Assembly: GCA_002784465.1 (NCBI GenBank)
Contig: PFLE01000011.1
Span: 3,966-67,965, forward strand
DNA length: 64,000 nucleotides
DNA from: Candidatus Shapirobacteria bacterium CG_4_10_14_0_8_um_filter_39_15
Lineage (GTDB): Bacteria; Patescibacteriota; Microgenomatia; UM-FILTER-39-15
Reading direction: 5' to 3'
Part shown: one piece after another, positions 3,146 through 64,000 of the stretch
How positions within the stretch are numbered: the first letter of the stretch is position 1
Layout: each line of letters starts with the position of its first letter
The notes under the pieces: model-generated
What the model saw: the letters and a program-made list of their open reading frames with translations, nothing else
What the model was told of the DNA's origin: nothing
Databases searched by the model: none
Position numbers and translations under genes: made by a program

Positions 3146-3186
3146 AGCTTGATTCAATCGGAATAATTTTGTCCACATTTTCCATT

Positions 3187-3209
3187 TTCCACATCGGATG
3201 TGGAATAGC
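3187..3209. repeat. REP-A palindrome TTCCACATCGGATGTGGAA plus TAGC, left flank of RAYT-1
   Basis: Perfect 19-nt palindrome (9-bp stem, 1-nt centre) lying 37 nt upstream of the RAYT-1 start. Confidence 0.7.
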
Positions 3210-3245
3210 TTGACACATCGGGAATAAAAGGATAAATTTATTGTA

Positions 3246-3914: not shown

Positions 3915-3931
3915 TATCCCGACGTGCGAAC

Positions 3932-3953
3932 CTATTCCACATCCGATGTGGAA
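3932..3953. repeat. REP-A palindrome (CTA-TTCCACATCCGATGTGGAA), right flank of RAYT-1, inverted relative to the left copy
   Basis: Same 19-nt palindrome as the left copy with a complementary centre base. It lies 18 nt after the RAYT-1 stop. Confidence 0.7.
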
Positions 3954-3974
3954 AGGATATCCGCCGAGAAAAAA

Positions 3975-7311: not shown

Positions 7312-8588
7312 ATTGTTGGCGAGACAGGTTTTAATTCGGCTTCAATTTCCAATAATCGGTTGTATTTGGCAATTCTCTCGCCTCGGGCTGGCGCGCCGAA
7401 TTTAGTATAGTCCGAACCAACGCCAACCGCAAAATCGGCAATAAAATCATCATTCGTTTCCCCTGAACGGTGAGAAACAATGACCTTCCATTTGGCATCG
7501 CGGGCCTGTTTAATTACTTTTATGGTTTCCGAAATGGTTCCAATCTGATTCGGTTTAACCAGAATCGCTCCGCAGGCTTTCCTTTCAATTGCCTTTTTAA
7601 CTCTTTCGGGGTTGGTGCACAGCAGATCATCACCGACTAAAATTGTTTCCGCGGTAACTTCAGCATTCATTTTCGTCCACGAATCCCAATCTTCTTCATA
7701 TAAAGGATCTTCTAGTAAAGATAAAGGATACTGTTCAAAAAGAGACCGGTAGAAATCAATCAAGTCGGCTGTTTCCATCGGCTGGGTCCGATCGCGGATC
7801 GTATAAACGCCATTTCTGTAAAAATTACTGGCGGCGCAGTCCAAGCCTAAAAAAACATCTCTTTTGAATTCAAAACCGCGTTCTTTTATCGCTTGAACAA
7901 TCACTTCTAGGGCATCAAGATTGGTAAATAAATTCGGCGCAAAACCGCCTTCATCGCCAACAGAATGAATCGCCCCGTGCCTGATTAAAATATCTTTAAC
8001 CCCTTGATAGACTTCTTCGGCAATTTCCAGATTTTGTTGATAGCTTTTTTGAGAAGTCAAAATAATATGAAATTCCTGAAATTCCAGATTTCCGGCGCCG
8101 TGTTTTCCCCCGTTGATTAAATTAAAAGTTGGTACCGGTATTATTATCGGGCCCAAAACTAACCCAATACCGGCGGCTAACTCCCGGACATACCGGTAAG
8201 TTGGTAATCCTTTGGCCAGAGCGCCCGCCTCGCAAATCCCTTGAGAAACACTTAATATAGAATTTGATCCCAGGTTACTTTTATTAAAACTGCCATCCAG
8301 ACGAATTAAAATATCATCAATTTCGAATTGCTTTGTTGGATCAAGACCAATTAATTTTGGCCCCATTATTTGATTGACATTATTAACCGCTTTCAAAACA
8401 CCCAAACCACCATAACGATTGGGATCGTTATCTCGAAGTTCCGAGGCTTCCATCGACCCGGTAGAAGCACCGGAAGGGACAGAAGCGATCGCTTTTTGAT
8501 TATTATCCAACCAAACAGCCGTTTCCACGGTTGGATTTCCGCGGCTGTCTAAGATTTCTCGTGCTTGAATGGCTTTAATTAAACTCAT
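7308..8588 (-). CDS. eno: enolase
   Basis: MSLIKAIQAREILDSRGNPTVETAV..., 426 aa. There is a 4-nt overlap with gpmI. Confidence 0.95.
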   Translation of the reverse strand: MSLIKAIQAREILDSRGNPTVETAVWLDNNQKAIASVPSGASTGSMEASELRDNDPNRYGGLGVLKAVNNVNQIMGPKLIGLDPTKQFEIDDILIRLDGSFNKSNLGSNSILSVSQGICEAGALAKGLPTYRYVRELAAGIGLVLGPIIIPVPTFNLINGGKHGAGNLEFQEFHIILTSQKSYQQNLEIAEEVYQGVKDILIRHGAIHSVGDEGGFAPNLFTNLDALEVIVQAIKERGFEFKRDVFLGLDCAASNFYRNGVYTIRDRTQPMETADLIDFYRSLFEQYPLSLLEDPLYEEDWDSWTKMNAEVTAETILVGDDLLCTNPERVKKAIERKACGAILVKPNQIGTISETIKVIKQARDAKWKVIVSHRSGETNDDFIADFAVGVGSDYTKFGAPARGERIAKYNRLLEIEAELKPVSPTI

Positions 8589-28420: not shown

Positions 28421-30403
28421 TTAGAAGTTCACAACTGGACCGTCGTATGTAATCTTACCCATATTGATGATCACAACGCGAGAAGCAGTCTTTGCCACCT
28501 GCTGGTCATGGGTAACGATTACGACGGCGATTCCTTTTTGTATCAGTGCTTGTACTAAATCTAGAACTTTGGCAATTCCGTCTGCATCAAGCCCGATGGT
28601 TGGTTCGTCTAGAATCAGGACTTGAATTCCCGCGGTTGAGGCAGAAATCGCGAGCATTTCTACTTCACTTGGATGAAGATCCAATGGACAGCTTAGTGGT
28701 TCCAAACCGGTCCAATCAATTCCTTCCGTAACGAACGCTTCAATTCTACCCGAATCCCAATGTTGTATTTTAGGACTGAACGAAAGTTCGTCATTCACTG
28801 TCATTGAGATAGTTTGAAGAGAGGCATTTTGAAAGACGTAGCCGACTCCTCCTCTCGCCTTGACATTTCCCTTGATTGGCTTAATTGCACCGGCAAGAGT
28901 CAGCATCGCAGTTGTTTTTCCGGAACCATTAGGTCCCATAACAACCACAAGTTCGCCTTCTCTTAAGTCTAGCGAGATGCCGTTAAGAATTGCTGTTCCG
29001 TCTAGCTCCACATAGACATTGTCCATTTTAGCGATAATCTCTCCCGGAATAACAGACATTGGTGGCCGGAATTCGCGTAGAAGAGAGTATCGGGAAAGCA
29101 TCTCTTCGGTGAAGAACTCTCCGGGAAGAACATCCTGCGCAATTGTTCCTTTTTCTAGGGTAACTACCCGTGTAACAAAAGGTTTTATTTCACTCCAAAA
29201 GGGATCAGCGATTATCACGGTGCAAGGATTTTGAACGAGGAAATCCTTAAGAGCACTCAAGAATTCCTGCCGTCCTTGCGGATCAAGTTCCTGCATTGGG
29301 GAATCAAAAAGAAGAATTTTTGCTGTAGAAGCGAGAATTCCGGCAAGAACAAGCCGAACTTGCTGTCCTCCCGAAAGTTTAGTTATCTCCTTTTCCCACA
29401 AATCCCCGATTCCCATTATCTCAAGGGTTCTTCGTGCACTGATTTCGTTTTCGGCGAGGAAAGTTATCTCCTGCCCAACAGTGAGTCCGTGAAACGAAGC
29501 AAAGGGATCCGGGGATATATAACGGACTGATCCGGAAAGTTTTGCTAGGGACGTATTCATCGTATTCATCCCTGATGCAGTAACGCTTCCCATGAATTCG
29601 CCCATAATTGAACTGATAATACCCCCTACTACCCTAAGGAGCGTCGTTTTTCCAGATCCCGACCTCCCTGCTAGGTAGATAAATTCTCCACCATCAACCC
29701 TTAGGTTAATTCCCGTCAATACATCCGGAAGGAGGGGCGAGTAGCGAACATGTACGTCATTCAGAATAAGATCCCCATTTCCTTCAGGCTTTGTTCGTGT
29801 ATGCGATAAGCTGGCGGCTGCTCCTTTCTGAGTGTTGTCTATCACTCGAGGAATTATCGCCATTGCAAGTGGAATGAGATTCCTAATACTGGCGATTGGC
29901 GAATCCCACTTCAGCCCACGAATGATAAGCGATTGCGTGAGAGCCACAAACTCTCTTTTGATAATCTGGACCCCTCGAAGAATTGTCAAAACCCAAGGTT
30001 CTGCAGGTTTTATCCAGGATAATCCTTCGTACATCTCTGGAAGAGAGGTAGAAAGAAGCCAGGCAAACGAGATAAGCATCGCCCCGATGATTCTTGTCCC
30101 CATCACCAATCCTCTCTCGAAACCTGCTTGGTTCACTGTGAAAACTAACCATTGCCAGCCGCCATGACCTCTAGCGGAGAAAATCACGTTATAGAAAAAC
30201 ATCATCGCCCCGGTAATGGGAGCAGCTAAAACCAACTTCCAATTCCGATTTTCGCCCACAAGATAAATTACAATTCCAACAAGAAGGAAAAGGATTGCAC
30301 CCGGAATGTTGTTAATGAAAATGTAGAGACAACCGCTGGTGAAAACGACTACCAGCCTCACTCTTGGTGATAGAAAAGACAAACCTCTCTTCCTCGTCTT
30401 CAT
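28421..30403 (-). CDS. fused ECF-transporter T component (CbiQ/EcfT) plus two ABC ATPase domains (EcfA/EcfA')
   Basis: N-terminal multi-TM EcfT-like region, then Walker A GRSGSGKTT and signature LSGGQQ, then a second Walker A GPNGSGKTT. GC is far above the genome background. Confidence 0.75.
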   Translation of the reverse strand: MKTRKRGLSFLSPRVRLVVVFTSGCLYIFINNIPGAILFLLVGIVIYLVGENRNWKLVLAAPITGAMMFFYNVIFSARGHGGWQWLVFTVNQAGFERGLVMGTRIIGAMLISFAWLLSTSLPEMYEGLSWIKPAEPWVLTILRGVQIIKREFVALTQSLIIRGLKWDSPIASIRNLIPLAMAIIPRVIDNTQKGAAASLSHTRTKPEGNGDLILNDVHVRYSPLLPDVLTGINLRVDGGEFIYLAGRSGSGKTTLLRVVGGIISSIMGEFMGSVTASGMNTMNTSLAKLSGSVRYISPDPFASFHGLTVGQEITFLAENEISARRTLEIMGIGDLWEKEITKLSGGQQVRLVLAGILASTAKILLFDSPMQELDPQGRQEFLSALKDFLVQNPCTVIIADPFWSEIKPFVTRVVTLEKGTIAQDVLPGEFFTEEMLSRYSLLREFRPPMSVIPGEIIAKMDNVYVELDGTAILNGISLDLREGELVVVMGPNGSGKTTAMLTLAGAIKPIKGNVKARGGVGYVFQNASLQTISMTVNDELSFSPKIQHWDSGRIEAFVTEGIDWTGLEPLSCPLDLHPSEVEMLAISASTAGIQVLILDEPTIGLDADGIAKVLDLVQALIQKGIAVVIVTHDQQVAKTASRVVIINMGKITYDGPVVNF

Positions 30404-30484: not shown

Positions 30485-31270
30485 TTATTCGGCAATGCCG
30501 GCCTGGCGCAGGCGAAGGGTATATAGGGGTAAGAGGAACAACCCCAAGACGGCGGAGACCGTATCCCCCACAAACCAGCCGACACCAGGATCGATTAAGG
30601 CTGCCTCGATTGGTTTGCCACCCACGTAGGCTGCGAAGGCACCGATCAGCGCACTGACTCCACAGGCAACGACGGCAATGTCCACCGCGAGAACAAAGTG
30701 ATCCATGTTCAGGTTTCTGCCAACGTTCCCCAGGATGACGGGCACGCCCACCACCAGAACGATAAGGGGCAGAGCCAGACCCCAAGGGGATGGCAAAGCC
30801 AGAACAATATTGACCAGACCCGCCGCCATGACCGCCAGAGCGAGCACGACGACGCGAACGGCCCCGTTCAGCACGTCATACGGATCTTTGCAGCCGAACG
30901 TAGGATCAAGTCTTAACATTCGGAACAGAAGGGCAGGCAGCATTGCGTTGGCAAACCCGCCGGCAATGGGATTCTGGATGATGTCCGTAATACCCCATCC
31001 GCCATACGCGAAAATACCGGCTGTATACGCACCGAGTCCGCCTGCCACCGCTCCGAGCCATGGTCCAAGCCAGATTCCCGCGACCAACTGCAAGGCCGCA
31101 GGTAACCAGATGAAGCTCGCCCCCTTCACAGAGGGTGACGAACCAACGGTTATCATGACCCAACCGATCGCGGCGATGGCCACTGCCAGAAAGCCGGCGA
31201 AGGTGTAGCGTAGAACCGGGTCACGTCGTGCAACGTACGTCTTAGAACTTGCCATTGGAATTTCCTCCAT
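30485..31270 (-). CDS. integral membrane protein, putative ECF S-component (substrate capture subunit)
   Basis: 261 aa rich in Ala/Gly/Val/Leu with multiple TM helices. It lies between the ECF T/A gene and a 5-FCL-family gene. Other ORFs overlapping this GC-rich stretch are spurious. Confidence 0.45.
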   Translation of the reverse strand: MEEIPMASSKTYVARRDPVLRYTFAGFLAVAIAAIGWVMITVGSSPSVKGASFIWLPAALQLVAGIWLGPWLGAVAGGLGAYTAGIFAYGGWGITDIIQNPIAGGFANAMLPALLFRMLRLDPTFGCKDPYDVLNGAVRVVVLALAVMAAGLVNIVLALPSPWGLALPLIVLVVGVPVILGNVGRNLNMDHFVLAVDIAVVACGVSALIGAFAAYVGGKPIEAALIDPGVGWFVGDTVSAVLGLFLLPLYTLRLRQAGIAE

Positions 31271-31284
31271 TTTACTAACTTTTT

Positions 31285-32055
31285 TTACAGCTGAGAAGAA
31301 AGCCTGGTCGGCATACCTACCACCTCCTCCTGCATCGCCTGAAGCTCCCGAAGCGGAGGGATTGACCCCAACATTCCTGGCTGGAGACTATCCCAAACCA
31401 CCCCAAGAGTGGGTTTGTGCGGCTCGTCGACCTTGATCATCCTTCTCGGAGTGCAAATCAGATCACAAGCCGTGTCGAATGGATCGGCGGAGAATTGCTC
31501 GGTGACCACCTGGCAGTCATGAACAACTGCGACTACCGGTGTTTTGGCACTGACGACGCCGATTGAATAGAACATGGCCCATTCAAGATCGAAATAGCCA
31601 TGCCCTTTACCAATACGAATCCCTCCGATTGTTACTGCCCCTGTTCCGGTCACTAACAAGTCAATTTTGCCGAATATGCTTTTGATGCTTTGGAGTGATA
31701 TGATAGCACCTTCGTTTTCCATGCCATCCAGGGTAGCGGCATAAAGGTACCGGCTTTTTGGGATACCAGGACCGAGAAGAACAAACCCCCTCCGAATTCC
31801 ATATGTAGAAACAATGATCGTTTTTTCTTGCCATAAAGCATGGTAGCGCAACCTTTCCAAACAATTATCCGGGGTGATGAAGACAGTATCTGCCTGTCTC
31901 CAAAAATCGCTCCTTATTAACCGACCCAGGGCTTGACCGCTTCCTACAAAATCCGCGATAAATTCACCCAGATCCATGTCGAATCGGCTATCGGGACGAG
32001 CAACCCCCTTCCTTAACTTCTCAAAAACTGCTTGCCTGACTTCATTCTTATCCAT
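31285..32055 (-). CDS. 5-formyltetrahydrofolate cyclo-ligase-family (MTHFS-like fold) protein
   Basis: IGKGHGYFDLEW matches the GxGxGYYD motif, and ITPDNCLERLR is N-terminal-like. 256 aa. Confidence 0.5.
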   Translation of the reverse strand: MDKNEVRQAVFEKLRKGVARPDSRFDMDLGEFIADFVGSGQALGRLIRSDFWRQADTVFITPDNCLERLRYHALWQEKTIIVSTYGIRRGFVLLGPGIPKSRYLYAATLDGMENEGAIISLQSIKSIFGKIDLLVTGTGAVTIGGIRIGKGHGYFDLEWAMFYSIGVVSAKTPVVAVVHDCQVVTEQFSADPFDTACDLICTPRRMIKVDEPHKPTLGVVWDSLQPGMLGSIPPLRELQAMQEEVVGMPTRLSSQL

Positions 32056-53991: not shown

Positions 53992-54068
53992 ATATAAGGA
54001 TTTTATCAGAATATTCTCATATTTGCCTCTTGACAATATTATTCTACATAAATTAAGTTATATTTGTA

Positions 54069-56531
54069 ATGAAAATTATACTAAAATCTTTTCTTCTATT
54101 TTTCATCATTTTACTTTTTAATTACCATAATTGTTTTGCCCTAACTCTGCTAGAAGATAATTTTAGTGGCGTTAGTCAAATGGATGGAAAACCCGTGAGT
54201 TGGGAAGAGCATTTAGGAGATATCGGTTCTTGGAATATCATTAATGGAGAATATATTGGAAAAGTCACAAAAGATACTTCCCAGGATTTATCTACATATT
54301 CTATAGCGGGTAACAATTCCTGGGATAACTATCGCTTTACTGTACGAATTAAAGGTGATATTGGTCTAGATAAAGTTATTCTTTTTAGATATCACTCTTT
54401 AAATGAAACTTATGCAATAAAGCTGATAAGCTCTTGGTGGGATACTTACGGAGATAAAATTACCCTGCTCAAAAATGATCTAACACAGTGGTGGGGAGCA
54501 AGTGCTGATTACGTTAATAGTCTTGGAATTTGGTACACATTATCTGTAGAGGTAAATAACAATAACATAAAGGTTTTTATCAATAACTCCACAACCCCCA
54601 TATTGGATTACACCGACACTAAAACTGAAACTAACAATCCTATTTTGAATGGAAAAATAGGATTAATGGCTTGGCCTGGATTTTATAACAATTATGGCAG
54701 CGTAACGCAGGTAAGTTTTGATGATGTCCTGGTAACTACCCTTGAATCTCCCTTACCCACCCTTACACCAACGCCTGCACCCTTACCCCCAATAGTAATC
54801 CTGCCCGGCTTGGGTTCCAGTTGGAATTCTGATGCCTTGCTTTTGGGACAGAATAAACCCCAAAGCGAATGGAAAGCAATGTTTGGTTTTACCCTTTATG
54901 AACCCTTAATCCAAACCCTTAAAAACGCCGGTTATGAGGATAATGGTCCTAACCAAAATCTTTTTCTTTTCTTTTACGACTGGACAAAACCGATTTCCCA
55001 AATCTCCGATGATTTAAAAATTTTTATCGCCAATGTTGTCAAGCCGCCGCCTAATAATAAAGTTGATTTAATTGGCCATAGTCTTGGAGGAATGGTAGGC
55101 AGAACTTATTTGCAGAATAATCCAGGCAATCCGGTTGATAAATTAATAACTTTAAGCTCTCCCCATCAAGGTGCGCCTTCGGCTTATTATGCCTGGGAAG
55201 GCGGTCAATTGGATAAACTTTTGGGGCCTTTTGAAAGAATCGGCGCCGGTCTTTTTCTCTATGGCAGAAATTTGACGCAAAATTCTCCATCGCAAGCTAA
55301 AGAAATTCAAACACTTTTTCCCGTCATTAAGGACTTACTGCCAACTTTTAATTATCTTAAGAAAGATCATTCGGAAGTCAATTTGGATCAAATGTCTCAA
55401 AAAAATATTTGGCTTATTAATCTAAATTCTTTCCTTCCGGATTATCTCACTTTACACCTCAATGCTTTTGTTGGCAATATTCCCAACAGCGTGATTGAAT
55501 GGATTCCGGTTACCTATCAGACCTGGCTTGATAAAATTTTAGGTCTTTGGCCTGATGGCAAACCAACTGACAATAATATTCTTGGGGCCGGGGATAAAAT
55601 TGCCTTGGCAAAAAGCAGCCAACTGGGAGGAGCAAATGTCTATGAAATTAATGGCGCCGATCACAGCACGATTGTTTCCGGTCCGGATTCGCTGCAAAAA
55701 GTCTTGGAAGTTCTCGGTCTGCCTTCCCAGCAATTTAACCCTTCGACTCCGCTCAGGGCAAGCAATTATTTAGTTTTTTACTTGGGTTCTCCGGCGAATA
55801 TCACTGGTATTTTTGATGGTAATCATCAACCGATTGGTAGTTTTGAAGGTAAAATGGGAATTGTTCCCGATCCTCTACCGGGCAAATATCAGGTGCAAAT
55901 TACCGGAACAGGAACGGGAAGTTATCGCTTATTTGTTGGGCAAATTAATCAAAATGGTCAGGATTTTTGGACCGATATTTCCGGAATGATAACTTTAAAT
56001 CAGGTCAAGTCCCATTTCCTTTCTTTCTCCTCTAATAATCCTCTAACTTTCCTTTATCCTGACGATTATTCGAATAGCGTTAAAACCAAACTGAATGACC
56101 TCAATATCAGCAGTACATACAAAACCGCTTTCCTTCTACTTTTTAATAAACAAAAATACGAGGACGCGATTAAATTTCTTTATGGTGTTCGTATCTTAAC
56201 CAAAGATTTTCCCACTAAAAATAAAATTCAGGAAATTATTGACCAATGCGAATTGCTTTATCTGTCGCAAAATTTAAACAAGCCTCTATATAATTCCGTT
56301 AAATTAGCTTCGGAATTAAAATCCAGCCGGTCGGTTTTTAATCAAATGGAAAGTTTGTTAAAAATAAAAGGTGCGCAGGGAAAAACGATTCCCGAATACG
56401 GTCAGCTTTATTTGCTGGCTCAAGATAAACTGAATCAAGCTTTGACAGCTAAATCTTATGAATCTCATATAAATGCCCTTGGCTCAAAAATGCTTTCCAC
56501 TGAACTAAATTATCTTCTTTCCAAAAACTAA
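54069..56531 (+). CDS. large secreted protein with an N-terminal lectin/LamG-like region and an alpha/beta-hydrolase (lipase/PGAP1-like) core
   Basis: Signal peptide and nucleophile elbow VDLIGHSLGGMVGRTYL (GxSxG). 820 aa. Confidence 0.5.
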   Translation: MKIILKSFLLFFIILLFNYHNCFALTLLEDNFSGVSQMDGKPVSWEEHLGDIGSWNIINGEYIGKVTKDTSQDLSTYSIAGNNSWDNYRFTVRIKGDIGLDKVILFRYHSLNETYAIKLISSWWDTYGDKITLLKNDLTQWWGASADYVNSLGIWYTLSVEVNNNNIKVFINNSTTPILDYTDTKTETNNPILNGKIGLMAWPGFYNNYGSVTQVSFDDVLVTTLESPLPTLTPTPAPLPPIVILPGLGSSWNSDALLLGQNKPQSEWKAMFGFTLYEPLIQTLKNAGYEDNGPNQNLFLFFYDWTKPISQISDDLKIFIANVVKPPPNNKVDLIGHSLGGMVGRTYLQNNPGNPVDKLITLSSPHQGAPSAYYAWEGGQLDKLLGPFERIGAGLFLYGRNLTQNSPSQAKEIQTLFPVIKDLLPTFNYLKKDHSEVNLDQMSQKNIWLINLNSFLPDYLTLHLNAFVGNIPNSVIEWIPVTYQTWLDKILGLWPDGKPTDNNILGAGDKIALAKSSQLGGANVYEINGADHSTIVSGPDSLQKVLEVLGLPSQQFNPSTPLRASNYLVFYLGSPANITGIFDGNHQPIGSFEGKMGIVPDPLPGKYQVQITGTGTGSYRLFVGQINQNGQDFWTDISGMITLNQVKSHFLSFSSNNPLTFLYPDDYSNSVKTKLNDLNISSTYKTAFLLLFNKQKYEDAIKFLYGVRILTKDFPTKNKIQEIIDQCELLYLSQNLNKPLYNSVKLASELKSSRSVFNQMESLLKIKGAQGKTIPEYGQLYLLAQDKLNQALTAKSYESHINALGSKMLSTELNYLLSKN

Positions 56532-56533
56532 TC

Positions 56534-56560
56534 GTCATCCTGAACGAAGTGAAGGATCTT
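56534..56560. repeat. hairpin-family element H6, divergent (GTCATCCTGAAC-GAAGTGAAGGATCTTC), followed by a T-run
   Basis: Starts 3 nt after the stop of 54069..56531. It may act as that gene's terminator. Confidence 0.4.
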
Positions 56561-56576
56561 CTTTTTCCCCGCGCCC

Positions 56577-56604
56577 TTGACAAGCTATCACCATTTGATA
56601 TAAT
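56577..56604 (+). promoter_or_regulatory. near-consensus sigma70 promoter (TTGACA, 16-nt spacer, TGaTATAAT extended -10)
   Basis: TTGACAagctatcaccatttgaTATAAT, giving a predicted start near 56611. Confidence 0.6.
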
Positions 56605-56610
56605 CTTTTC

Positions 56611-57472
56611 TTACGAATCACAAATTGGTGATGCAGTTTGAAAAAGGAGGTTCTTAACTAATTGACAGCAAACAGTCAGACAGTATGGAGATTCAATTCA
56701 CCCTGCCTGGACTGTTAGCCTACACCACTACGGCACACGGAGAGTACACGTTACTGAGGGGTCACGTTCTTGGGTGTTAGCTCCACAATTTCACGCACAT
56801 GTTGGGTATCACGGTGTGTGCCGTAAAGGGGAAGGTTTGGGTTCGGCGGAGCTTATGGTTGGGCTGTGATGCTGATCTCGCCTTTTCCTTGGATCCCGTC
56901 CGGCGGGATCCTGCTCAGACTCGGGAGGGTTTTTGTGGTGGAATCCCCCTGAGTCACAATCGACATGGCTCGGGTAAAGACCAAAAGGAGGTAGTATGGC
57001 AGTAGAAATCTTCCTGATTTCCTGGCTCGGCAAGGTTGCCAATCGCCAGTGCCAAGCGAATCCCTGTCAGGTCATGGTACCCCGAGCCGACTCCAACTCC
57101 CTCGGTTGTCATTTAGGATGGAGCCGTCTTGGGCCTGTCTAGTTTTGTTCGGGATCGGATTCGTCGGGAGTTGTCTTCGTTTTACGCCGTCGAGCTGTTG
57201 TATCTGATCAAGGTAAATCACCTTGCGTGATGCGTCAAACAGTTACGGTAATATTTACAGCGACAACTCTCTAATCGTTGTTCACAACCGGTCTAAATAG
57301 GAGGTAACATGCCTCTGTACAAATCCGGTATTTGTCGGCACAAGGTTCTGGGCCTTGTAAGCTGACTCGGTGAATCCGGGAAAATGAATGGCGTTCGTCA
57401 GCTCCGGCGGAGATGAAAACACAAGGTTACCAAACCTGTGCCACCATCATCTCTTCCGGAGCTCTTTTTTTA
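56611..57472 (+). ncRNA. candidate large structured non-coding RNA of unknown class (GC-rich, about 860 nt, no long ORF)
   Basis: GC about 50 % against about 36 % in the flanks. Longest ORF about 77 codons. An 8-bp/5-nt hairpin GGATCCCG-TCCGG-CGGGATCC lies at 56892-56912. Terminator-like CCGGAGCTC plus T7 at 57455-57472. Motif-level resemblance to RNase P P4 and to tmRNA only. Confidence 0.3.
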
Positions 57473-57473
57473 T

Positions 57474-57515
57474 AACTACGTTCACACCTTAAAGGTGAAT
57501 TACGTTCGCACCTCC
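57474..57515. repeat. REP-B element copy f (AACTACGTTCACACCTTAAAGGTGAATTACGTTCGCACCTCC), left flank of RAYT-2
   Basis: Lies 40 nt upstream of the RAYT-2 start. Confidence 0.75.
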
Positions 57516-57554
57516 TACTTTACATTCTTATTTAATTATTTTATAGTAATAATT

Positions 57555-58214
57555 ATGCCAGGGAGAAATCCAATTTTAGCTACAGGTGAAATTTATCATG
57601 TTTTTAATCGAGGTGTTGAACATCGTCAAATCTTTCATGATGTTTATGACTATCAAAGAGCAATTGGAGCAATTAATTTCTATCAACACAATCCAGAACT
57701 TAAATTTTCAGATTTTCTTAATCTCCCAATCGATCAAAAGCAACAAATTCTAAAAGATATTGATAAATTACCAAAAATTGTCGAAATACTCTGCGAATGT
57801 TTAATGCCTAATCATTTCCATTTCCTTCTTGAGCAATTAACCGATCAAGGAATTTCTATTTTTTTGAGTAAATTTACAAATAGCTATACTAAATATTTTA
57901 ATACAAGAGATAACCGTGACGGAAGTTTGTTTGGAGGTCCATTTAAGGCAGTTCGCATCGATACAACTGAACAGCTACTTCAGGTTTCTCGATATGTCCA
58001 CTTAAACCCTGTTGTTTCTTTTTTAATTAAACCCGAGGAAATAATAAATTATCAATGGTCTTCATTGAAAGAATTATTAGAAAAACCTACGACTGCTCAA
58101 AAGGAATTAATTCTTTCATCATTCCAAACTCCAGCAAAATATCAGGAATTTGTCATGGATCAAGTTAACTATGCAAAATCGCTGGAAAATTTAAAAGACA
58201 AATTTTTTGAATAA
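57555..58214 (+). CDS. REP-associated tyrosine transposase-like protein (RAYT / Y1 HuH), copy 2
   Basis: HuH LMPNHFHFLL and ...GGPFKAVRIDTTEQLLQVSRYVHLNPV...INYQWSS. About 45 % identical to copy 1. ATG at 57555 is preferred to the ORF-track start at 57438. Confidence 0.75.
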   Translation: MPGRNPILATGEIYHVFNRGVEHRQIFHDVYDYQRAIGAINFYQHNPELKFSDFLNLPIDQKQQILKDIDKLPKIVEILCECLMPNHFHFLLEQLTDQGISIFLSKFTNSYTKYFNTRDNRDGSLFGGPFKAVRIDTTEQLLQVSRYVHLNPVVSFLIKPEEIINYQWSSLKELLEKPTTAQKELILSSFQTPAKYQEFVMDQVNYAKSLENLKDKFFE

Positions 58215-58222
58215 AACGAAAG

Positions 58223-58250
58223 GTGTGAACCTAGTTCACCTTAAAGGTGG
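58223..58250. repeat. REP-B element copy g, truncated and inverted (GGTGTGAACCTAGTTCACCTTAAAGGTG)
   Basis: Lies 9 nt after the RAYT-2 stop and abuts or overlaps the tRNA-Val 3' end. Confidence 0.65.
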
Positions 58251-58321
58251 GTACGGAAGGACTTGAACCTTCGGCCTCCTGAATGTGAATCAGGCGCTCC
58301 AGCCGCTGAGCTACGTACCCA
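58249..58321 (-). tRNA. tRNA-Val (anticodon CAC)
   Basis: Minus strand: D-stem GCTC/GAGC, anticodon stem CCTGA/TCAGG with loop TTCACAT, T-arm GAAGG-TTCAAGT-CCTTC, acceptor 3' CGTACCC. Position 1 is T, giving a T1:C72 mismatch. Confidence 0.7.
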
Positions 58322-58425
58322 ATAAAATTTGTGCGGGTGCGGGTAAACCAACTGGGCCGCACAAGCTTCTTAACTTTTCCTTCTTGCTTCCATTATACCA
58401 AATACGGTAAAATTTATTAAAGATT

Positions 58426-59013
58426 ATGAATGAATTAACTAAACGAATTGGCGGATTTTTTCTTGATATTATTCAAACTATTGTTTTAGCCCTTTCCCTA
58501 TTTGTTGTTTGCTATTTGTTTTTATTCCAAGTTCATGTGGTTAAAGGAAGTTCAATGTTCCCCAATTTCCATGATGGAGATTTAATTTTAACCGATAAAA
58601 TTTCTTACCGCTTCAATCTTCCCCAAAGATTTGACGTGGTAGTCCTTAAGGCGCCTTCTTCCGAACCGTGCTCTGAACAAAATTGCGAATATATTAAAAG
58701 AATTATTGGTTTACCAAATGATAGAATCCGCCTCCTTAATAATCAAATATTTGTTGATGAATCGATTATTGCTGAACCTTTTTTGTCTTCAGACATCGTT
58801 ACCATGGGCAGCTCGGCGTTACATGAAGGAGAAACAAAAACTTTAGAAAGTGAAGAATATTTGGTGATGGGTGATAATCGAACATACTCCCGTGATGGCC
58901 GAGAATTTGGTCCGATCAAAAGAAATGCCATTATCGGAAAAGCGTGGTGGAGAGTTTGGCCTGTAAGCGACTTTGGTTTAGTTAAACACTATTCTTTGCA
59001 AACTGCTTTGTAA
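58426..59013 (+). CDS. lepB: signal peptidase I
   Basis: S26 motifs KGSSMFPNF and RIIGLPND with an N-terminal TM helix. Confidence 0.85.
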   Translation: MNELTKRIGGFFLDIIQTIVLALSLFVVCYLFLFQVHVVKGSSMFPNFHDGDLILTDKISYRFNLPQRFDVVVLKAPSSEPCSEQNCEYIKRIIGLPNDRIRLLNNQIFVDESIIAEPFLSSDIVTMGSSALHEGETKTLESEEYLVMGDNRTYSRDGREFGPIKRNAIIGKAWWRVWPVSDFGLVKHYSLQTAL

Positions 59014-59822
59014 ATTTTCAGAAGCGTTCCGTCGGTATCTTCCAACCCGCCCTTCAAAGTGAATGTTATTTTTGTTTCTGCCCTTGACCGGGTAATTTTA
59101 ACTTTTGCTTTCGCCCCATCATCCACCAGCTTTTTTTCCATTTCGTTTCTCATCCGATCCGCTTCCTCGTGAACCAAAAAAACTTGAACTTTGTTTCTCT
59201 TGGCCTCCTCGCCAACACTGTATTTCATTCTTCGGGCGATATCTTCCGCACGTCTCACCGAAGCGGCTTCCTTCAAAATTATCTTATAAGCTTCAATCAT
59301 TACCCTTGGATCCTCAATCGCGGCTAATGCTCTAGCATGACCTTCGCTGATTAAACCCGACAATAAACCGTCTTTCAAAGCATCCGGCAATGTCAGGATA
59401 CGCAATGAGTTGGAAACATAGGCCTGGCTTTTACCAATGCGGCGGGAAATTTCCGACGTTCCTAAACTAAATTCCTCAATTAATCTTTGAAACGCTTTAG
59501 CCCTCTCAATCGGATTCAAATCAACCCGCTGAACATTTTCCACAATGGCCATTTCCAACATCCCTCGGGGTGTGGTTTCCTTAATAATTACCGGTACGTA
59601 AGCTAATCCGGCAATCTTGGCTGCCCGCCATCGCCGTTCACCGGCAACTAGTTGATATCCGGCCGGTGTTTTAGCAACAACCAGAGGTTCTAAAATTCCG
59701 TGCTGTTTAATTGAGTCAACTAAATCAACTAACGATTCCGGAGTAATCACGCCTCGCGGTTGAAGAGGATTGCCCTGCAATTCGTTTATATCAAGCTGAA
59801 TAACCTGTTGATTTTCTGCCAT
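58989..59822 (-). CDS. parB: chromosome partitioning protein ParB/Spo0J
   Basis: ParB N-terminal box (IQLDINELQGNPLQPR...GILEPLVV...LVAGERRWRAAKIAGL) plus an HTH region. Confidence 0.85.
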   Translation of the reverse strand: MAENQQVIQLDINELQGNPLQPRGVITPESLVDLVDSIKQHGILEPLVVAKTPAGYQLVAGERRWRAAKIAGLAYVPVIIKETTPRGMLEMAIVENVQRVDLNPIERAKAFQRLIEEFSLGTSEISRRIGKSQAYVSNSLRILTLPDALKDGLLSGLISEGHARALAAIEDPRVMIEAYKIILKEAASVRRAEDIARRMKYSVGEEAKRNKVQVFLVHEEADRMRNEMEKKLVDDGAKAKVKITRSRAETKITFTLKGGLEDTDGTLLKIYKAVCKE

Positions 59823-59824
59823 TT

Positions 59825-60070
59825 TTAAATGACATTAACAAAAACATCACTTTTATTCTTTTTGAAAACTACCGACCCTTCCTTAAGGGCAAAAATCGTA
59901 TAATCACGACCCATACCGACGCCTTCTCCCGGATGATATTTTGTCCCTTTTTGCCGAACCAAAATCATGCCGTTTTTAACTTTTTGACCACCAGAAATTT
60001 TTAAGCCTAAACGGCGGCCGACGCGATTGGTTTTTTGACTGACTTTTCCGCCTGCTTTTGTTTTTGACAT
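59825..60070 (-). CDS. rpmA: 50S ribosomal protein L27
   Basis: [24 protein letters not shown]... Confidence 0.9.
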
Positions 60071-61583: not shown

Positions 61584-64000
61584 TCGTTCAAACGTTTGAT
61601 CGAAAGAGTCTCGCCTTCATGAATCTCCGAAGCCAATGTTTGTTTCTTAATAAAATCTTCAAAAGCTTTTTGTACATTTGGAATATATACAATGACTTTT
61701 TCGTCTAGTAAACAGCCGGCAGTTTTCCTCAACTCTTGAATTTGCCGAATCAGATCTCTAACCTCGCCCTCAATCTTCAGTTCTTCGTTTATATTTGTGT
61801 CCAACTCAACTTTCAGCTCACCCTTTCCTTGTAAAACTTCTACCTTCTTTACGTTCAATTCATCTTCGATCAATTTCAATAATTCATTATCTAACTTCTC
61901 GTTTCCCTGCCTCGCCGCAAGGCGGGCCACTTCCAACTTCAATTTTTGTAAGGGTTGTCTCACCTTAATTCCTGCCTCTTTTCTTTTTGCGTGTCCCATC
62001 TCGCATATTTCCCTCACCATCCTCATCTCCCGCACCAACCCCATATCGATTTTCCCCACCGCAGGCCAATCAGACAGATGAACCGATTCCTCTTTCGTTA
62101 AATTTCGATAAATATCCTCCGCCAAGAAAGGTGTAAACGGCCCTAACAGCCGTGCCAGACTAACCAAGACTTCCCAAAGAGTTTCGTAGCATGAATCCTT
62201 GTCTTCCTGATTTGCTGTCGATGGACCGATCCGATCCCGTGATCTACGAATATACCAAGTTGACAAATCCGAGACGAAATCTTCAATCGCATGACTGGCG
62301 GTATAGGCGTCATATTTTTCTAACGATTCGGTCACAGTCTTTACCAGTTCATTCAATCTCGCCATTATCCATCTATCCAAAATGTTTCTCGCTTCCCGCT
62401 TCTCACCTCCCATTTCCCACTGGTCAATATTTGCATAGGTAACAAAGAAATTGTATATGTTCCAGAGAATCAAGTGAAATTTCCTTCTGGTTTCATCGGC
62501 CACATGATAACCAAAATTTAAATTGATTTCGGGATTTTGCGTCACGTACATCCACCGCATCACATCCACCCCGATTTTTTCGGCTGCCTCATCAAACCAG
62601 ATCGCGTTCCCCTTACTTTTGTGCATCTCTTCACCCTTTTCGTCCATCACGGTGGCATAGCCGAATAACGACTTAAAAGGATTGGTGTCTTCCATAACCG
62701 TTGACATCACTAATAATGAATAAAACCAGTTCTTAAACTGTCCCGGAAAGGATTCGGTCACAAAATCGGCCGGAAACCAATCTTTCGGCAAAGTTGAGAA
62801 AGGCACAATTCCGGCATCAAGCCAGGGATTTCCCACGTCTTTAATTCGGTTCATTAATTTTCCACACTTCGGACATTTTATTTTAACTTTATCGACCCAA
62901 GGACGATGTGGTGAATGATCCCAAAATCCTTTACCCTGAGCATCAGCGAAGGGCTCAACGGTCTTTTCTTTTAGCTCTTTCTTACTGCCGATTACCTCGA
63001 AATATCCGCATTCGCACTCCCAAATGGGTAAAGCCAGTCCCCAATATCTTTTTTTGGAAATTAACCAATCGTGCATATTTTTTATCCAATCAAGTTCCTG
63101 ATCCTTGCCCCAAGAAGGAATCCAGGTGATTTTTTCAACCACTTTTCGCATCGGATCACGCAGCGGATCCATTTTTATATACCATTCATCAACCACCCGC
63201 CAAACCAATTCGGTTTTACATCGCCAACACTGGGGATAACGATGAGTATATTTTTCAAGTTTAAATAAAAATTTCCCGTTATCTTTTTCTTTCAGAAAAC
63301 CAAATATCAATCCCGGGTCGTCTTTAGCATTTTTACCGGTTAAATCTCCATAACCATCAACATAGTTTGCGGCTTCATCTATTACCTCCACAATTGGTAG
63401 TTTCTCTCTTACGCCAAGTTGGAAATCCTCCGTACCGGCGCCGGGAACGATATGAACAATACCCGTACCTTCTTCGGCCGTCACTAAATCCTTTTCCAAA
63501 AAAACAAGATGATAAGTTTCCGGATAATCTTTTTTTGCCTGAATATTAATCGGTAGGTCGTCAAACGGCGCCGTATAATGTTCTCCTGCCAACTCAATTC
63601 CCCTGATTTCCCTGATTAACCTGATTTCCCTGATTCCAAACACTTTCGGTGCCAGATCTTTTGCCAAGATTAAAGTTTCTTTCTCTCCTTCTACTTCAAA
63701 TTCCCCATAGGTAAAGGTCGGGTTAACCGCTAAAGCAATATCGGCCGGAATTGTCCAGGGAGTGGTCGTCCAGACCAAAAATGCGGATGGATGATCAGAA
63801 TTTAAACGGTGACACTTAAAATAAACGGAAGTATGGGTTATTTCTTTATATTCTTCTGTTAAAATCTCGTGTTGAGAAATAGCCGTGCCGCAACGCGGAC
63901 ACCAGGGAACGCTGTCTCTACCTTTATACAACCAACCATTTTCGTGACACTGACGAAGGAAGTGCCAAATCATATAATTATTTTCATCAGACATTGTGTA
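61580..64000 (-). CDS. ileS: isoleucyl-tRNA synthetase, N-terminus beyond the window end
   Basis: ...MIWHFLRQCHENGWLYKGRDSVPWCPRCGTAISQHE..., KMSKS-type region, C-terminal Zn-finger-like. Contains the in-frame CCTGATTTC-type repeat at 63601-63637. The ORF-track Met at 63994 is internal. Confidence 0.9.
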   Translation of the reverse strand, partial: YTMSDENNYMIWHFLRQCHENGWLYKGRDSVPWCPRCGTAISQHEILTEEYKEITHTSVYFKCHRLNSDHPSAFLVWTTTPWTIPADIALAVNPTFTYGEFEVEGEKETLILAKDLAPKVFGIREIRLIREIRGIELAGEHYTAPFDDLPINIQAKKDYPETYHLVFLEKDLVTAEEGTGIVHIVPGAGTEDFQLGVREKLPIVEVIDEAANYVDGYGDLTGKNAKDDPGLIFGFLKEKDNGKFLFKLEKYTHRYPQCWRCKTELVWRVVDEWYIKMDPLRDPMRKVVEKITWIPSWGKDQELDWIKNMHDWLISKKRYWGLALPIWECECGYFEVIGSKKELKEKTVEPFADAQGKGFWDHSPHRPWVDKVKIKCPKCGKLMNRIKDVGNPWLDAGIVPFSTLPKDWFPADFVTESFPGQFKNWFYSLLVMSTVMEDTNPFKSLFGYATVMDEKGEEMHKSKGNAIWFDEAAEKIGVDVMRWMYVTQNPEINLNFGYHVADETRRKFHLILWNIYNFFVTYANIDQWEMGGEKREARNILDRWIMARLNELVKTVTESLEKYDAYTASHAIEDFVSDLSTWYIRRSRDRIGPSTANQEDKDSCYETLWEVLVSLARLLGPFTPFLAEDIYRNLTKEESVHLSDWPAVGKIDMGLVREMRMVREICEMGHAKRKEAGIKVRQPLQKLKLEVARLAARQGNEKLDNELLKLIEDELNVKKVEVLQGKGELKVELDTNINEELKIEGEVRDLIRQIQELRKTAGCLLDEKVIVYIPNVQKAFEDFIKKQTLASEIHEGETLSIKRLNE

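What the first reader, a model, noticed from the sequence alone, without database searches (positions are those of the whole stretch)
56577..57472. Near-consensus promoter driving an ~860-nt GC-rich region with no long ORF: candidate large structured RNA of unknown class
A TTGACA-16-TGaTATAAT promoter is the best sigma70 match in the window. It is followed by about 860 nt at roughly 50 % GC in a roughly 36 % GC genome. The longest ORF is about 77 codons.

The stretch has several strong local hairpins, for example GGATCCCG-TCCGG-CGGGATCC. It ends in a CCGGAGCTC plus T7 terminator-like element just before REP-B copy f.

In AT-rich genomes such GC enrichment is typical of structured RNAs (rRNA, tRNA, RNase P, tmRNA). 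There are motif-level resemblances. GGGGAAGGTTTGGGTTC (56825-56841) resembles RNase P CR-I/P4 (GGAGGAAAGTCCGGGCTC), with a possible complementary CCAAACCT at 57440. GGATTCGTCGGGA (57155) resembles the tmRNA 5' motif GGATTCGACGGGA.

Neither assignment is consistent in spacing or pairing, so the class is open. The large-ornate RNA families (GOLLD, ROOL, HEARO, OLE) often sit beside tRNAs and mobile elements, as here, so those families are also candidates.
Basis: partly seen in the sequence, partly recalled or inferred. Interest (0 to 1): 0.7.

Follow-up and report, generated by a model that had tools for sequence, protein, structure and literature searches.

The report
Orphan structured RNA carrying small ORFs
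A perfect promoter and a long terminator bracket an ~860-base, GC-rich, tightly folded transcript found in only two related candidate-phyla-radiation bacteria; it matches no known RNA family, and its conserved centre evolves like a gene for a 48-residue protein, so it is most likely a structured small-protein messenger rather than a new giant non-coding RNA.

Summary
Window 56577-57472 has the only 12/12 sigma-70 promoter in the 64 kb. It is followed by about 860 nt at 50% GC, against 30-44% in the other intergenic regions. All six frames carry stops, and the unit ends in a 64-nt terminator hairpin plus T7. Predicted folding is far stronger than in shuffles (z -9.0) and is strand-specific.

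The proposed identities fail. Rfam 15 gives no match even at E<=10, and ARAGORN finds no tmRNA.

Only one other lineage carries the unit, a Logan contig (L020) at the same site. A more distant syntenic relative has just 66 nt there. So this is a lineage-restricted insertion, and no statistical covariation test is possible.

The two copies share the promoter, three 8-10-nt Shine-Dalgarno-like motifs, a 122-149-nt core hairpin, two 3' hairpins and the terminator. The GC-rich spacers between them cannot be aligned.

The core holds a 48/54-codon ORF. It shows 11 synonymous codon differences against 5.4 expected. All its indels are multiples of three, and start and stop are conserved (joint permutation P about 0.003). 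The other two frames show no such signal.

Best reading: a structured mRNA or dual-function RNA for an orphan small protein, with its ribosome-binding sites sequestered by folding. A pure non-coding RNA remains possible.

The parts
56577..56604 (+). Sigma-70 promoter: -35 TTGACA, 16-nt spacer with extended -10 TG, -10 TATAAT
   Evidence: It scores 12/12 and is unique in the window. An identical arrangement occurs in L020 at 5940-5967. Sequence homology with L020 begins at the -35 element.
56611..56640 (+). Predicted 5' end of the transcript, with the conserved CTTACGAATCACA and a 5' stem-loop (ATCAC 56617-56621 / GTGAT 56628-56632)
   Evidence: 15 nt (TTCTTACGAATCACA) are identical in L020, and both copies can form a small 5' hairpin. 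The start site itself is inferred from its distance to the -10 element.
56641..56651 (+). Shine-Dalgarno-like motif 1 (AAAAAGGAGGT)
   Evidence: It is conserved in L020 (AAAAGGAGG at about 6124-6132, AGGAGG from 6127). The nearest start codon is 11-16 nt downstream, and the short ORFs that follow (18 and 10 aa) are unrelated, so there is no evidence that it drives translation of a conserved peptide.
56660..56966 (+). Variable GC-rich hairpin spacer 1 (GC 0.53), including GGATCCCGTCCGGCGGGATCC at 56891-56911
   Evidence: It cannot be aligned with L020, where the corresponding stretches are shorter and lie partly upstream of motif 1. The window spacer has GC 0.53; the L020 counterparts have 0.46 and 0.41. 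Both are full of perfect hairpins, with UUCG loops in L020. The population SNP at 56797 lies here.
56967..57088 (+). Conserved core hairpin (122 nt; 149 nt in L020) closed by GGCUCGGG / CCCGAGCC. It carries SD motif 2 and the start of sORF2 on its 5' arm.
   Evidence: The same nested helices appear in both MFE folds: ACCA/UGGU, UGGCA/UGCCA, GAAAUC/GAUUUC and CUGGC/GCCAG. The RNAalifold consensus has 42 pairs, none broken, two with changes on both sides and six with a change on one side. The 21-nt insertion in L020 lengthens the apical stem.
56983..56992 (+). Shine-Dalgarno motif 2 (AAAAGGAGGT), 4 nt before the ATG of sORF2
   Evidence: It is conserved in L020, 7 nt before the ATG. Its predicted unpaired probability is only 0.20 (0.26 in L020).
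56996..57142 (+). sORF2: 48 codons plus TAG (MAVEIFLISWLGKVANRQCQANPCQVMVPRADSNSLGCHLGWSRLGPV)
   Evidence: The orthologue is 54 codons in L020 (6222-6386), 66% identical, with the last 21 residues nearly invariant. Differences by codon position are 10/9/21. There are 11 synonymous codon differences against 5.4 expected (P 0.014), BLOSUM sum P 0.001, and joint with no stop P 0.0026; the other two frames show no signal. All indels are multiples of 3. Gene callers called it in several assemblies. No population SNP falls in it.
57146..57295 (+). Variable spacer 2 (GC 0.46)
   Evidence: It is largely unalignable with L020 6390-6603, and indels there are not multiples of three. The population SNP at 57281 lies here.
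57296..57316 (+). Shine-Dalgarno motif 3 (AATAGGAGGT) paired with CCUCU in a hairpin
   Evidence: The GGAGG/CCUCU pairing is kept in both species, although L020 has an 84-nt hairpin inserted in the loop. The unpaired probability is 0.17 and 0.19.
57309..57365 (+). sORF3: 18 codons plus TGA (MPLYKSGICRHKVLGLVS)
   Evidence: It is 46 codons in L020 (6620-6760). The frame and stop are kept despite 84-nt and 3-nt indels, and the C-terminal RHKxLxLVS is shared. Substitutions show no third-position excess by my count, and the conserved residues coincide with hairpin stems, so the coding evidence is weak.
57334..57366 (+). Conserved hairpin GUCGGCACAAGG-loop-CCUUGUAAGCUGAC
   Evidence: The stems are identical in the two species and the loop differs. 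The rare population variant at 57341 (C to T) turns a C-G pair into U-G.
57400..57471 (+). Intrinsic terminator: 64-nt extended hairpin (57400-57463) followed by T7 (57465-57471)
   Evidence: The outer stem AGCUCCGG/CCGGAGCU is identical in L020. The inner stem is GGAGAUGA/UCAUCUCU here and CGGGAAAUGG/CCAUUUCCUG in L020, which amounts to two compensatory double changes and a paired insertion (MAFFT misaligns this stretch). Homology with L020 ends right after the T run.

Best explanation
The region is one autonomous transcription unit, restricted to a narrow Microgenomates lineage. It produces an abundant, heavily folded RNA of about 860 nt.

Shown:
- A consensus extended -10 promoter and a long terminator delimit the unit exactly.
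- Conserved modules are separated by fast-evolving spacers that stay GC-rich and hairpin-rich.
- The conserved centre is a long irregular hairpin. It bears an unusually long Shine-Dalgarno sequence and a 48-codon ORF whose substitutions and indels behave like those of a protein-coding gene.

Inferred:
- The RNA is mainly the messenger for an orphan small protein. That protein may have an N-terminal amphipathic helix and a Cys-rich C-terminal hairpin with four possible metal ligands in both species.
- A second short ORF may also be translated.
- Translation is gated by folding. Both functional Shine-Dalgarno sequences and both start codons are predicted to be base-paired with segments that lie downstream of them. 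Ribosomes could therefore load only during transcription or after the fold is opened.
- The GC-rich hairpin spacers and the 5' and 3' stem-loops stabilise the transcript in an AT-rich cell.

Whether the RNA also acts as a regulator in its own right, as dual-function RNAs such as RNAIII do, is open.
For: Unit boundaries:
- The 12/12 promoter is unique in the window and conserved in L020.
- The terminator is conserved with compensatory changes.
- Homology with L020 starts at the -35 element and stops after the T run.

Structure:
- Whole-unit z is -9.0 and -7.9 on the sense strand in the two species.
- Local z is -3.1 to -6.5 in most element windows, while most flanking windows lie between about -1.6 and +2.
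- The same helices recur in both species with no broken pair in the core.
- The L020 insertions sit at helix apices.
- The unalignable spacers are above typical intergenic GC (0.30-0.37 in eight of the nine other gaps): 0.53 and 0.46 in the window, 0.41-0.49 in L020.

Coding:
- sORF2 start, stop and frame are conserved, and all its indels are multiples of 3.
- Third-position excess is 21 of 40 differences.
- Permutation tests give P 0.014 for synonymous changes, 0.001 for BLOSUM and 0.0026 joint. Frames +1 and +2 give P above 0.5.
- The SD motifs are 8-10 nt long in a genome where only 8 of 49 genes have at least 5 nt of SD. Three of the eight AGGAGG on the + strand of the 64 kb lie in this unit.

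Sequestration: SD2 and SD3 have unpaired probability 0.17-0.26 in both species.

Not a pseudogene: no frame matches Pfam, PHROGs or NCBIfam.
Against: - Only two lineages are known, so both the coding and the structure signals rest on one pairwise comparison.
- The conserved codons of sORF2 also form conserved helices, and several synonymous sites fall at bulges or wobble positions. Structure alone could therefore mimic part of the coding signal.
- In the N-terminal half of sORF2, and throughout sORF3, residues encoded by loops change radically (F-L to W-Q, V to E, G to D).
- The codon alignment used in the permutation test was made at the protein level, which favours frame 0 slightly in the gapped part.
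- The peptide has no homologue among 1.84 billion cluster representatives.
- SD motif 1 has no usable start codon and is unexplained by a messenger-only model.
- Population SNP density is higher in the unit (3 in 862 nt) than in its flanks (8 in about 13.6 kb).
- No expression data are available.
Confidence: 0.5

Rival explanations
1. It is a new class of large structured non-coding RNA. The ORFs are accidents of a GC-rich sequence. The conserved codons reflect helices, and the three AAAGGAGG motifs are functional RNA elements, for example sites that bind the 3' end of 16S rRNA or a protein.
For: - Folding is strong and strand-specific in both species.
- Helices are kept with compensatory changes and apical insertions.
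- Variable regions stay GC-rich and hairpin-rich, with UUCG tetraloops in L020.
- Motif 1 has no start codon nearby.
- Residues encoded by loops are not conserved.
- The promoter is of the strength usual for stable RNAs.
- Long GC-rich intergenic regions are a recognised signature used to find structured RNAs (abstract of PMC8723152, seen).
Against: - The frame-specific excess of synonymous and conservative changes in sORF2 is absent from the other two frames.
- All four indels inside the two ORFs are multiples of three, while those outside are not.
- An optimal SD-ATG spacing is kept at two sites.
- Two of the five stretches between promoter and terminator (about half the unit's length) cannot be aligned between species whose neighbouring genes are 78% identical. 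That is unlike known ornate RNAs with conserved cores.
- There is no Rfam match.
Confidence: 0.25
2. It is a type I toxin-antitoxin-like or otherwise toxic small-peptide locus. A stable, translationally inert primary transcript with sequestered ribosome-binding sites would encode a harmful peptide, released only after processing.
For: - The small ORF sits in a long, highly structured mRNA with SD and AUG buried by pairing.
- The unit lies in a variable island next to a tRNA and a transposase.
- It is a lineage-restricted insertion.
Against: - The peptide is not a hydrophobic transmembrane helix. The N-terminal segment carries E4, K13 and R17, and the single-sequence model is only moderately confident (pLDDT 68).
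- No promoter-like site exists on the opposite strand inside the unit in either species.
- No PADLOC search was done.
Confidence: 0.07
3. It is an inert or decaying remnant of foreign GC-rich DNA, such as a fragment of a mobile element or a pseudogene, that happens to retain expression signals.
For: - It is absent from the syntenic site in L023 and L021.
- Its GC content, strong SD motifs and consensus promoter are atypical for the host.
- SNP density is higher than in the flanks.
- Large parts cannot be aligned with L020.
Against: - Promoter, terminator, three SD motifs, core hairpin and sORF2 are all preserved between two species whose neighbouring genes have diverged to 78% identity.
- GC-richness is kept in the window spacers and only partly in L020's, even though their sequence has turned over.
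- No frame resembles any protein family.
- There are no terminal repeats or att-like duplicates.
- There are no phage or plasmid matches.
Confidence: 0.1
4. It is a divergent member of a known RNA family: RNase P RNA, tmRNA, GOLLD, ROOL, HEARO, OLE, raiA, or a group I or II intron.
For: Only short motif resemblances noted by eye, plus its size and its position near a tRNA and a transposase.
Against: - No Rfam 15 covariance model reaches its gathering score in the window.
- In the 1.3-kb region, nothing but junk microRNA and snoRNA hits on the terminator hairpin appears at E<=10.
- L020 gives no hit at E<=0.1.
- ARAGORN finds no tmRNA.
Confidence: 0.02

Closest known systems
Dual-function (coding plus regulatory) bacterial RNAs, e.g. 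Staphylococcus aureus RNAIII/hld, SgrS/SgrT, SR1/SR1P (from established knowledge, not tested here)
   Same: It has its own strong promoter and intrinsic terminator. The structure extends well beyond the ORF. A small ORF is embedded in the middle of a multi-hairpin RNA, with its ribosome-binding site involved in pairing.
   Different: There is no sequence or model similarity. At about 860 nt it is larger than RNAIII (514 nt). It has three SD-like motifs and perhaps two ORFs. No target or regulatory activity is known. It is restricted to two uncultured CPR species.
Large ornate non-coding RNAs (GOLLD RF01998, ROOL RF03087, OLE RF01071, HEARO RF02033, raiA RF03072)
   Same: The size range is similar. 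It is a GC-rich intergenic outlier in an AT-rich genome, lies next to a tRNA and a transposase, and has strong predicted structure.
   Different: No covariance-model match appears at any threshold tried. About half of the unit cannot be aligned between close relatives. The conserved core shows protein-coding substitution patterns.
Type I toxin mRNAs (hok, tisB, zorO and similar)
   Same: It is a long structured mRNA with a small ORF whose SD and AUG are sequestered. It occurs in variable genome islands.
   Different: The peptide is not a membrane helix. No antisense promoter or partner RNA is detectable.
Analogous unit in the relative L021 (7309-8300, + strand)
   Same: It has near-consensus promoters (11/12), about 950 nt at GC 0.5-0.6 without long ORFs, z of -6.5, and an AAGGAGG-led 42-codon ORF. 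It lies in the same variable island between the lipase-like gene and a tRNA.
   Different: nhmmer finds no sequence similarity, and the peptide is unrelated. Whether it is a diverged homologue or an independent cassette is unknown.

Membership tests
RNase P RNA (RF00010/RF00011) | Match to the covariance model, including the P4 pseudoknot and conserved regions CR-I to CR-V | tested here: not met
   There is no hit at the gathering score in the window and none at E<=10 in 56400-57700.
tmRNA (RF00023 and permuted forms) | tRNA-like domain plus tag-peptide reading frame | tested here: not met
   ARAGORN finds only tRNA-Val in 54000-60000. There is no Rfam hit.
GOLLD / ROOL / HEARO / OLE / raiA | Match to the family covariance model (conserved multistem core) | tested here: not met
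   No match in the window at gathering, in the region at E<=10, or in L020 at E<=0.1.
Group I / group II introns | Catalytic core (P3-P9, or domains V/VI) recognised by the Rfam models | tested here: not met
   No match. No intron-encoded protein is present.
Riboswitch or other cis-regulatory leader | Conserved aptamer in the 5' untranslated region upstream of the regulated ORF | tested here: not met
   The 5' region between motif 1 and the core cannot be aligned between the two species, and there is no Rfam hit.
Dual-function RNA / structured small-protein mRNA | Independent transcription unit with promoter and terminator | tested here: met
   Both signals are present and conserved in the two species. 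Transcription itself has not been observed.
Dual-function RNA / structured small-protein mRNA | Small ORF under protein-level purifying selection | tested here: met
   For sORF2 the joint permutation P is 0.0026, all indels are in frame, and the other frames show no signal. This rests on only two sequences and is confounded with structure.
Dual-function RNA / structured small-protein mRNA | Conserved secondary structure beyond what coding requires | tested here: inconclusive
   Sense-strand z is -9.0 and -7.9, and helices are shared with a few compensatory changes. Two sequences give no statistical covariation test.
Dual-function RNA / structured small-protein mRNA | Base-pairing or protein-binding regulatory activity of the RNA itself | not testable with these tools
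   This needs target identification and genetics in an uncultured organism.
Type I toxin-antitoxin | Hydrophobic transmembrane toxin peptide | tested here: not met
   The sequence has charged residues throughout the N-terminal helix. The model shows helix 3-21 plus a beta hairpin, at pLDDT 68.
Type I toxin-antitoxin | Antisense or divergent antitoxin RNA with its own promoter | tested here: not met
   There is no promoter-like site of at least 9/12 on the - strand inside the unit in either species.
Pseudogene of a known protein family | Residual similarity of some frame to a protein family | tested here: not met
   Pfam, PHROGs and NCBIfam were negative for sORF2 (both species) and L020 sORF3; Pfam was also negative for ten longer ORF fragments from both species. 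phmmer of sORF2 against 1.84 billion representatives finds only itself and two spurious repeat proteins.

The most novel reading that the evidence does not exclude
The unit is a new kind of large scaffold RNA that engages ribosomes. It would be a GC-rich, hairpin-studded transcript displaying three 8-10-nt sequences complementary to the anti-Shine-Dalgarno tail, in a CPR bacterium that otherwise hardly uses Shine-Dalgarno sequences. It would act on 30S subunits or on translation globally, for example as a sponge or as a regulator of ribosome availability. The embedded ORFs would be secondary or used as a sensor.
Probability: 0.12. Interest if true: 0.7.

Novelty: new member of a known kind. 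Interest (0 to 1): 0.4.

Why it matters
CPR (Patescibacteria) genomes are tiny and still poorly understood, and almost nothing is known about their non-coding RNAs or small proteins.

This locus is a clean, strongly signalled unit that annotation pipelines miss or call inconsistently. If it is expressed, it would be among the most strongly promoted transcripts in the genome. It would encode an orphan Cys-rich 48-residue protein inside an unusually structured RNA.

It also illustrates a practical point. A GC-rich intergenic outlier in an AT-rich genome is not automatically a non-coding RNA, because coding and structural constraints can overlap in the same nucleotides.

Its narrow distribution, two uncultured species, limits general significance unless more members are found.

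Tried and rejected
Homologue searches that found nothing new:
- blastn (distant mode) against phages and plasmids: no match.
- Word-indexed protein search with sORF2: only itself.
- phmmer against 1.84 billion representatives: itself plus two repeat proteins whose scores come from 8-20 weak repeats.
- Peptide-pattern scan of GTDB species genomes: one spurious hit antisense to an RNase J-like gene in an Acetobacteraceae MAG.
- Degenerate-codon pattern scan of JGI metagenomes: only the same species.
- Four viral-contig scans: nothing, or chance 17-mer hits that were negative by nhmmer.
- Synteny route through the neighbouring lipase-like protein: one orthologue (L020) and three relatives without the element (L021, L023, L024).
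- Route through the orphan 660-aa neighbour of L020: one more contig (L030), without the element.
- Look-up of the exact 48-aa peptide: always the same genomic context.

Other ideas tested and dropped:
- A recoded or frameshifted large gene: stops of all three kinds occur in all frames.
- Internal repeats or modular duplication: only the three SD motifs repeat.
- An integrative element with att repeats of the tRNA-Val end: none found.
- Association with the RAYT transposase: L020 has the element without a RAYT.
- Paralogues elsewhere in the window: none by nhmmer.
- Fold search of the peptide model: not attempted, because pLDDT 68 from a single sequence would give meaningless matches.
Full report
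**Context**

The window comes from a Microgenomates-group CPR bacterium. Exact-protein look-ups place it on GCA_002793655.1 (PFEJ01000019.1) and on many groundwater metagenome contigs.

The finding lies between a gene for an 820-aa lipase-like surface protein (54069-56531) and a REP-flanked RAYT transposase gene (57555-58214). Next come tRNA-Val on the - strand (58246-58320), signal peptidase, ParB and L27.

**Observation**

- The promoter TTGACA-16-TGaTATAAT at 56577-56604 scores 12/12. It is the only such site on either strand of the 64 kb.
- The following ORF-free gap is 906 nt at GC 0.50. The other nine gaps of at least 250 nt have GC 0.30-0.44, and the window mean is 0.388.
- The longest ORFs are 77 aa (- strand) and 68 aa (+ strand). 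All six frames carry 9-14 stops of all three kinds.
- The unit ends in a 64-nt hairpin at 57400-57463 plus T7, just before a REP copy.
- Predicted folding is much better than for dinucleotide shuffles. The whole-unit z-score is -9.0 on the + strand and -3.7 on the - strand.
- With 200-nt windows, z is -3.1 to -6.5 for most + strand windows between 56800 and 57600. One window (57000-57199) gives -0.2. Most flanking coding windows lie between about -1.6 and +2.

**Known families**

- Rfam 15 finds only tRNAs in the window at gathering thresholds.
- In 56400-57700 at E<=10, it finds only meaningless microRNA and snoRNA hits on the terminator hairpin.
- The orthologous locus gives no hit at E<=0.1.
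- ARAGORN finds no tmRNA.

The resemblances to RNase P and tmRNA, and the GOLLD, ROOL, HEARO, OLE and intron candidates, are therefore not supported.

No reading frame matches Pfam, PHROGs or NCBIfam. Nothing similar exists in the phage or plasmid collections. A pseudogene or a known mobile element is thus not supported either.

**Distribution**

All contigs that carry the exact neighbouring proteins belong to the same species. They differ from the window by 0-2 bases across the element.

Homologues of the lipase-like protein gave one more carrier, L020 (Logan SRR22388223). There the protein is 78% identical and the element sits at the same place (5938-6873), with an identical 12/12 plus TG promoter.

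Three relatives lack it:
- L021 (49% protein identity) has no copy at that site.
- L023 and L024 (42% identity) keep the order lipase, 208-aa ORF, signal peptidase, ParB, L27, but have only 66 nt after the lipase gene.

The element is therefore a lineage-restricted insertion in a variable island next to a tRNA. Every other search found nothing new: peptide words, phmmer against 1.84 billion representatives, peptide or codon patterns over GTDB genomes and JGI metagenomes, and four viral scans. With two lineages, no statistical covariation analysis is possible.

**Anatomy from the two-species comparison**

Homology begins at the -35 element and ends after the T run.

Conserved modules:
- the promoter, with 15 nt of the 5' end and a small 5' hairpin;
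- three Shine-Dalgarno-like motifs, AAAAGGAGG(T) twice and AGGAGG once;
- a core hairpin of 122 nt (149 nt in L020) closed by GGCUCGGG/CCCGAGCC;
- a hairpin in which SD motif 3 pairs with CCUCU;
- the hairpin GGCACAAGG-loop-CCUUGUAAGC;
- the terminator.

Where alignable, these modules are 77-79% identical, the same as the neighbouring lipase gene at 78%. The stretches between them cannot be aligned. Those spacers are still GC-rich (0.53 and 0.46 in the window, 0.41-0.49 in L020) and made of near-perfect hairpins in both species. This suggests selection for folding rather than for sequence.

Evidence that helices are maintained:
- The core consensus has 42 pairs, none broken. Two changed on both sides and six on one side.
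- The inner terminator stem is GGAGAUGA/UCAUCUCU in the window and CGGGAAAUGG/CCAUUUCCUG in L020.
- The L020 insertions of 21 nt and 84 nt both sit at helix apices and form hairpins of their own.

**Coding signal**

SD motif 2 lies 4 nt (7 nt in L020) before an ATG. That ATG opens a 48-codon ORF at 56996-57142, which is 54 codons in L020. The two peptides are 66% identical, and the C-terminal stretch VPRADSxSxGCxxGWSRLGPV is nearly invariant.

- Of 40 nucleotide differences in the 48 aligned codons, 10, 9 and 21 fall at codon positions 1, 2 and 3.
- There are 11 synonymous codon differences against 5.4 expected (P 0.014).
- The BLOSUM sum has P 0.001.
- The joint probability of that many synonymous changes with no new stop is 0.0026.
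- The other two frames show no signal, with P above 0.5.
- All indels inside the ORF are multiples of three. Those in the spacers are 14, 10, 37 nt and so on.

A second ORF follows SD motif 3: 57309-57365, 18 codons, against 46 in L020. It keeps its frame and stop across 84-nt and 3-nt indels. Its substitutions show no coding pattern, and its conserved residues coincide with hairpin stems.

SD motif 1 has no start codon within 10 nt in either species.

Two caveats apply. The conserved codons of sORF2 are also helix strands, and several synonymous sites sit at bulges or wobble pairs, so coding and structure are confounded. In addition, loop-encoded residues change radically.

**The Shine-Dalgarno anomaly**

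Only 8 of 49 ORFs of at least 120 aa in the window have 5 nt or more of anti-SD complement upstream. Three of the eight AGGAGG on the + strand of the whole window lie in this 860-nt unit.

In the partition function of both species, SD motifs 2 and 3 and their start codons are mostly paired, with unpaired probability 0.17-0.26. Their partners lie downstream.

**Interpretation**

I consider a structured messenger, or a dual-function RNA, for an orphan small protein the best-supported reading (confidence about 0.5). In this reading, folding gates translation and stabilises the transcript.

The peptide has no homologue. A single-sequence model gives a helix at residues 3-21 and a beta hairpin, at pLDDT 68. 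Both species offer four possible metal ligands: Cys19, Cys24, Cys38 and His39 in the window, and four Cys in L020. A zinc site is only an inference from these sequences.

Alternatives:
- A pure non-coding RNA of a new class remains a serious alternative (about 0.25). The structural features are real and motif 1 is unexplained by a messenger-only model.
- A type I toxin-like locus (about 0.07) lacks a hydrophobic peptide and an antisense promoter.
- An inert foreign remnant (about 0.1) is hard to reconcile with preservation of all expression signals and the ORF, although SNP density is higher than in the flanks (3 in 862 nt against 8 in about 13.6 kb).

**Verdict**

The finding is real, and it is a well-delimited orphan unit.

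In kind it resembles dual-function or structured small-protein RNAs, so I rate it a new member of a known kind. Interest is moderate (0.4). It is an unusual locus in an under-studied phylum, but it is known from only two uncultured species and has no expression data.

Noticed in passing
L021:7309-8300 (+ strand): This relative lacks the element but has an analogous unit in the same island. It has two 11/12 sigma-70-like promoters (7309-7337 and 7796-7823); the second shares CCTTGACAAGCTnTC with the window promoter. The unit is about 950 nt at GC 0.5-0.6 with no ORF above 78 aa, and z is -6.5 (+) against -4.2 (-). A 42-codon ORF led by AAGGAGG starts at 8008. The unit ends against a tRNA. nhmmer finds no similarity to the window element.
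   Followed up: partly
L020:6912-8894 (-), L021:5251-7278 (-), L030:442-2460 (+): An orphan protein family of 660-675 aa (32-51% identity, ending in CxCxKC) lies next to the element or its analogue. It has no Pfam or PHROG match and only a weak NCBIfam hit to a Csa3-type HTH. It is not found in the 64-kb window by tblastn.
   Followed up: partly
window:30300-31500: This is a second GC-rich island (0.55-0.60). It covers ORF 30485-31270 (no Pfam hit) and the start of a 5-formyltetrahydrofolate cyclo-ligase gene (31285-32055). The genes at 28421-30403 and 31285-32055 have unusually strong SD sequences for this genome (30485-31270 does not). It may be horizontally acquired.
   Followed up: partly
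window, all ORFs of at least 120 aa: The genome rarely uses Shine-Dalgarno sequences. Only 8 of 49 ORFs have 5 nt or more complementary to the anti-SD within 22 nt upstream of the start.
   Followed up: yes
window:57475-57514 and 58216-58255; also 14940, 34517, 36031, 44130, 49489: A REP family (CGTTCACACCTTAAAGGTGAA...) flanks the RAYT gene 57555-58214 in inverted orientation and is scattered through the window. The right-hand copy overlaps the 3' end of tRNA-Val by 10 nt.
   Followed up: partly
window:3186-3954: A second IS200-like Y1 transposase (RAYT-type) ORF at 3246-3914 is flanked by a different pair of 38-nt inverted repeats, at 3186-3223 and 3917-3954.
   Followed up: partly
window:56534-56558; L020:5863-5888: Different short palindromic elements follow the lipase-like gene in the two species. 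The window has GTCATCCTGAACGAAGTGAAGGATC, and L020 has GTCATTCCGGGCTTGACCCGGAATCC. Both lie upstream of the element's promoter and outside the homologous unit.
   Followed up: no
window:52145-52197 and 63592-63644: Short tandem arrays with a 9-nt period (CCCTGATTT-like) lie inside - strand ORFs. They presumably encode peptide repeats.
   Followed up: no
L032:2752-2959 and L033:2899-3067: JGI annotations place odd features inside the element. One has an 18-residue product spanning 208 nt, starting at the TTG after SD motif 1. The other has a 7-residue product on the opposite strand. This shows that pipelines handle the region inconsistently.
   Followed up: no
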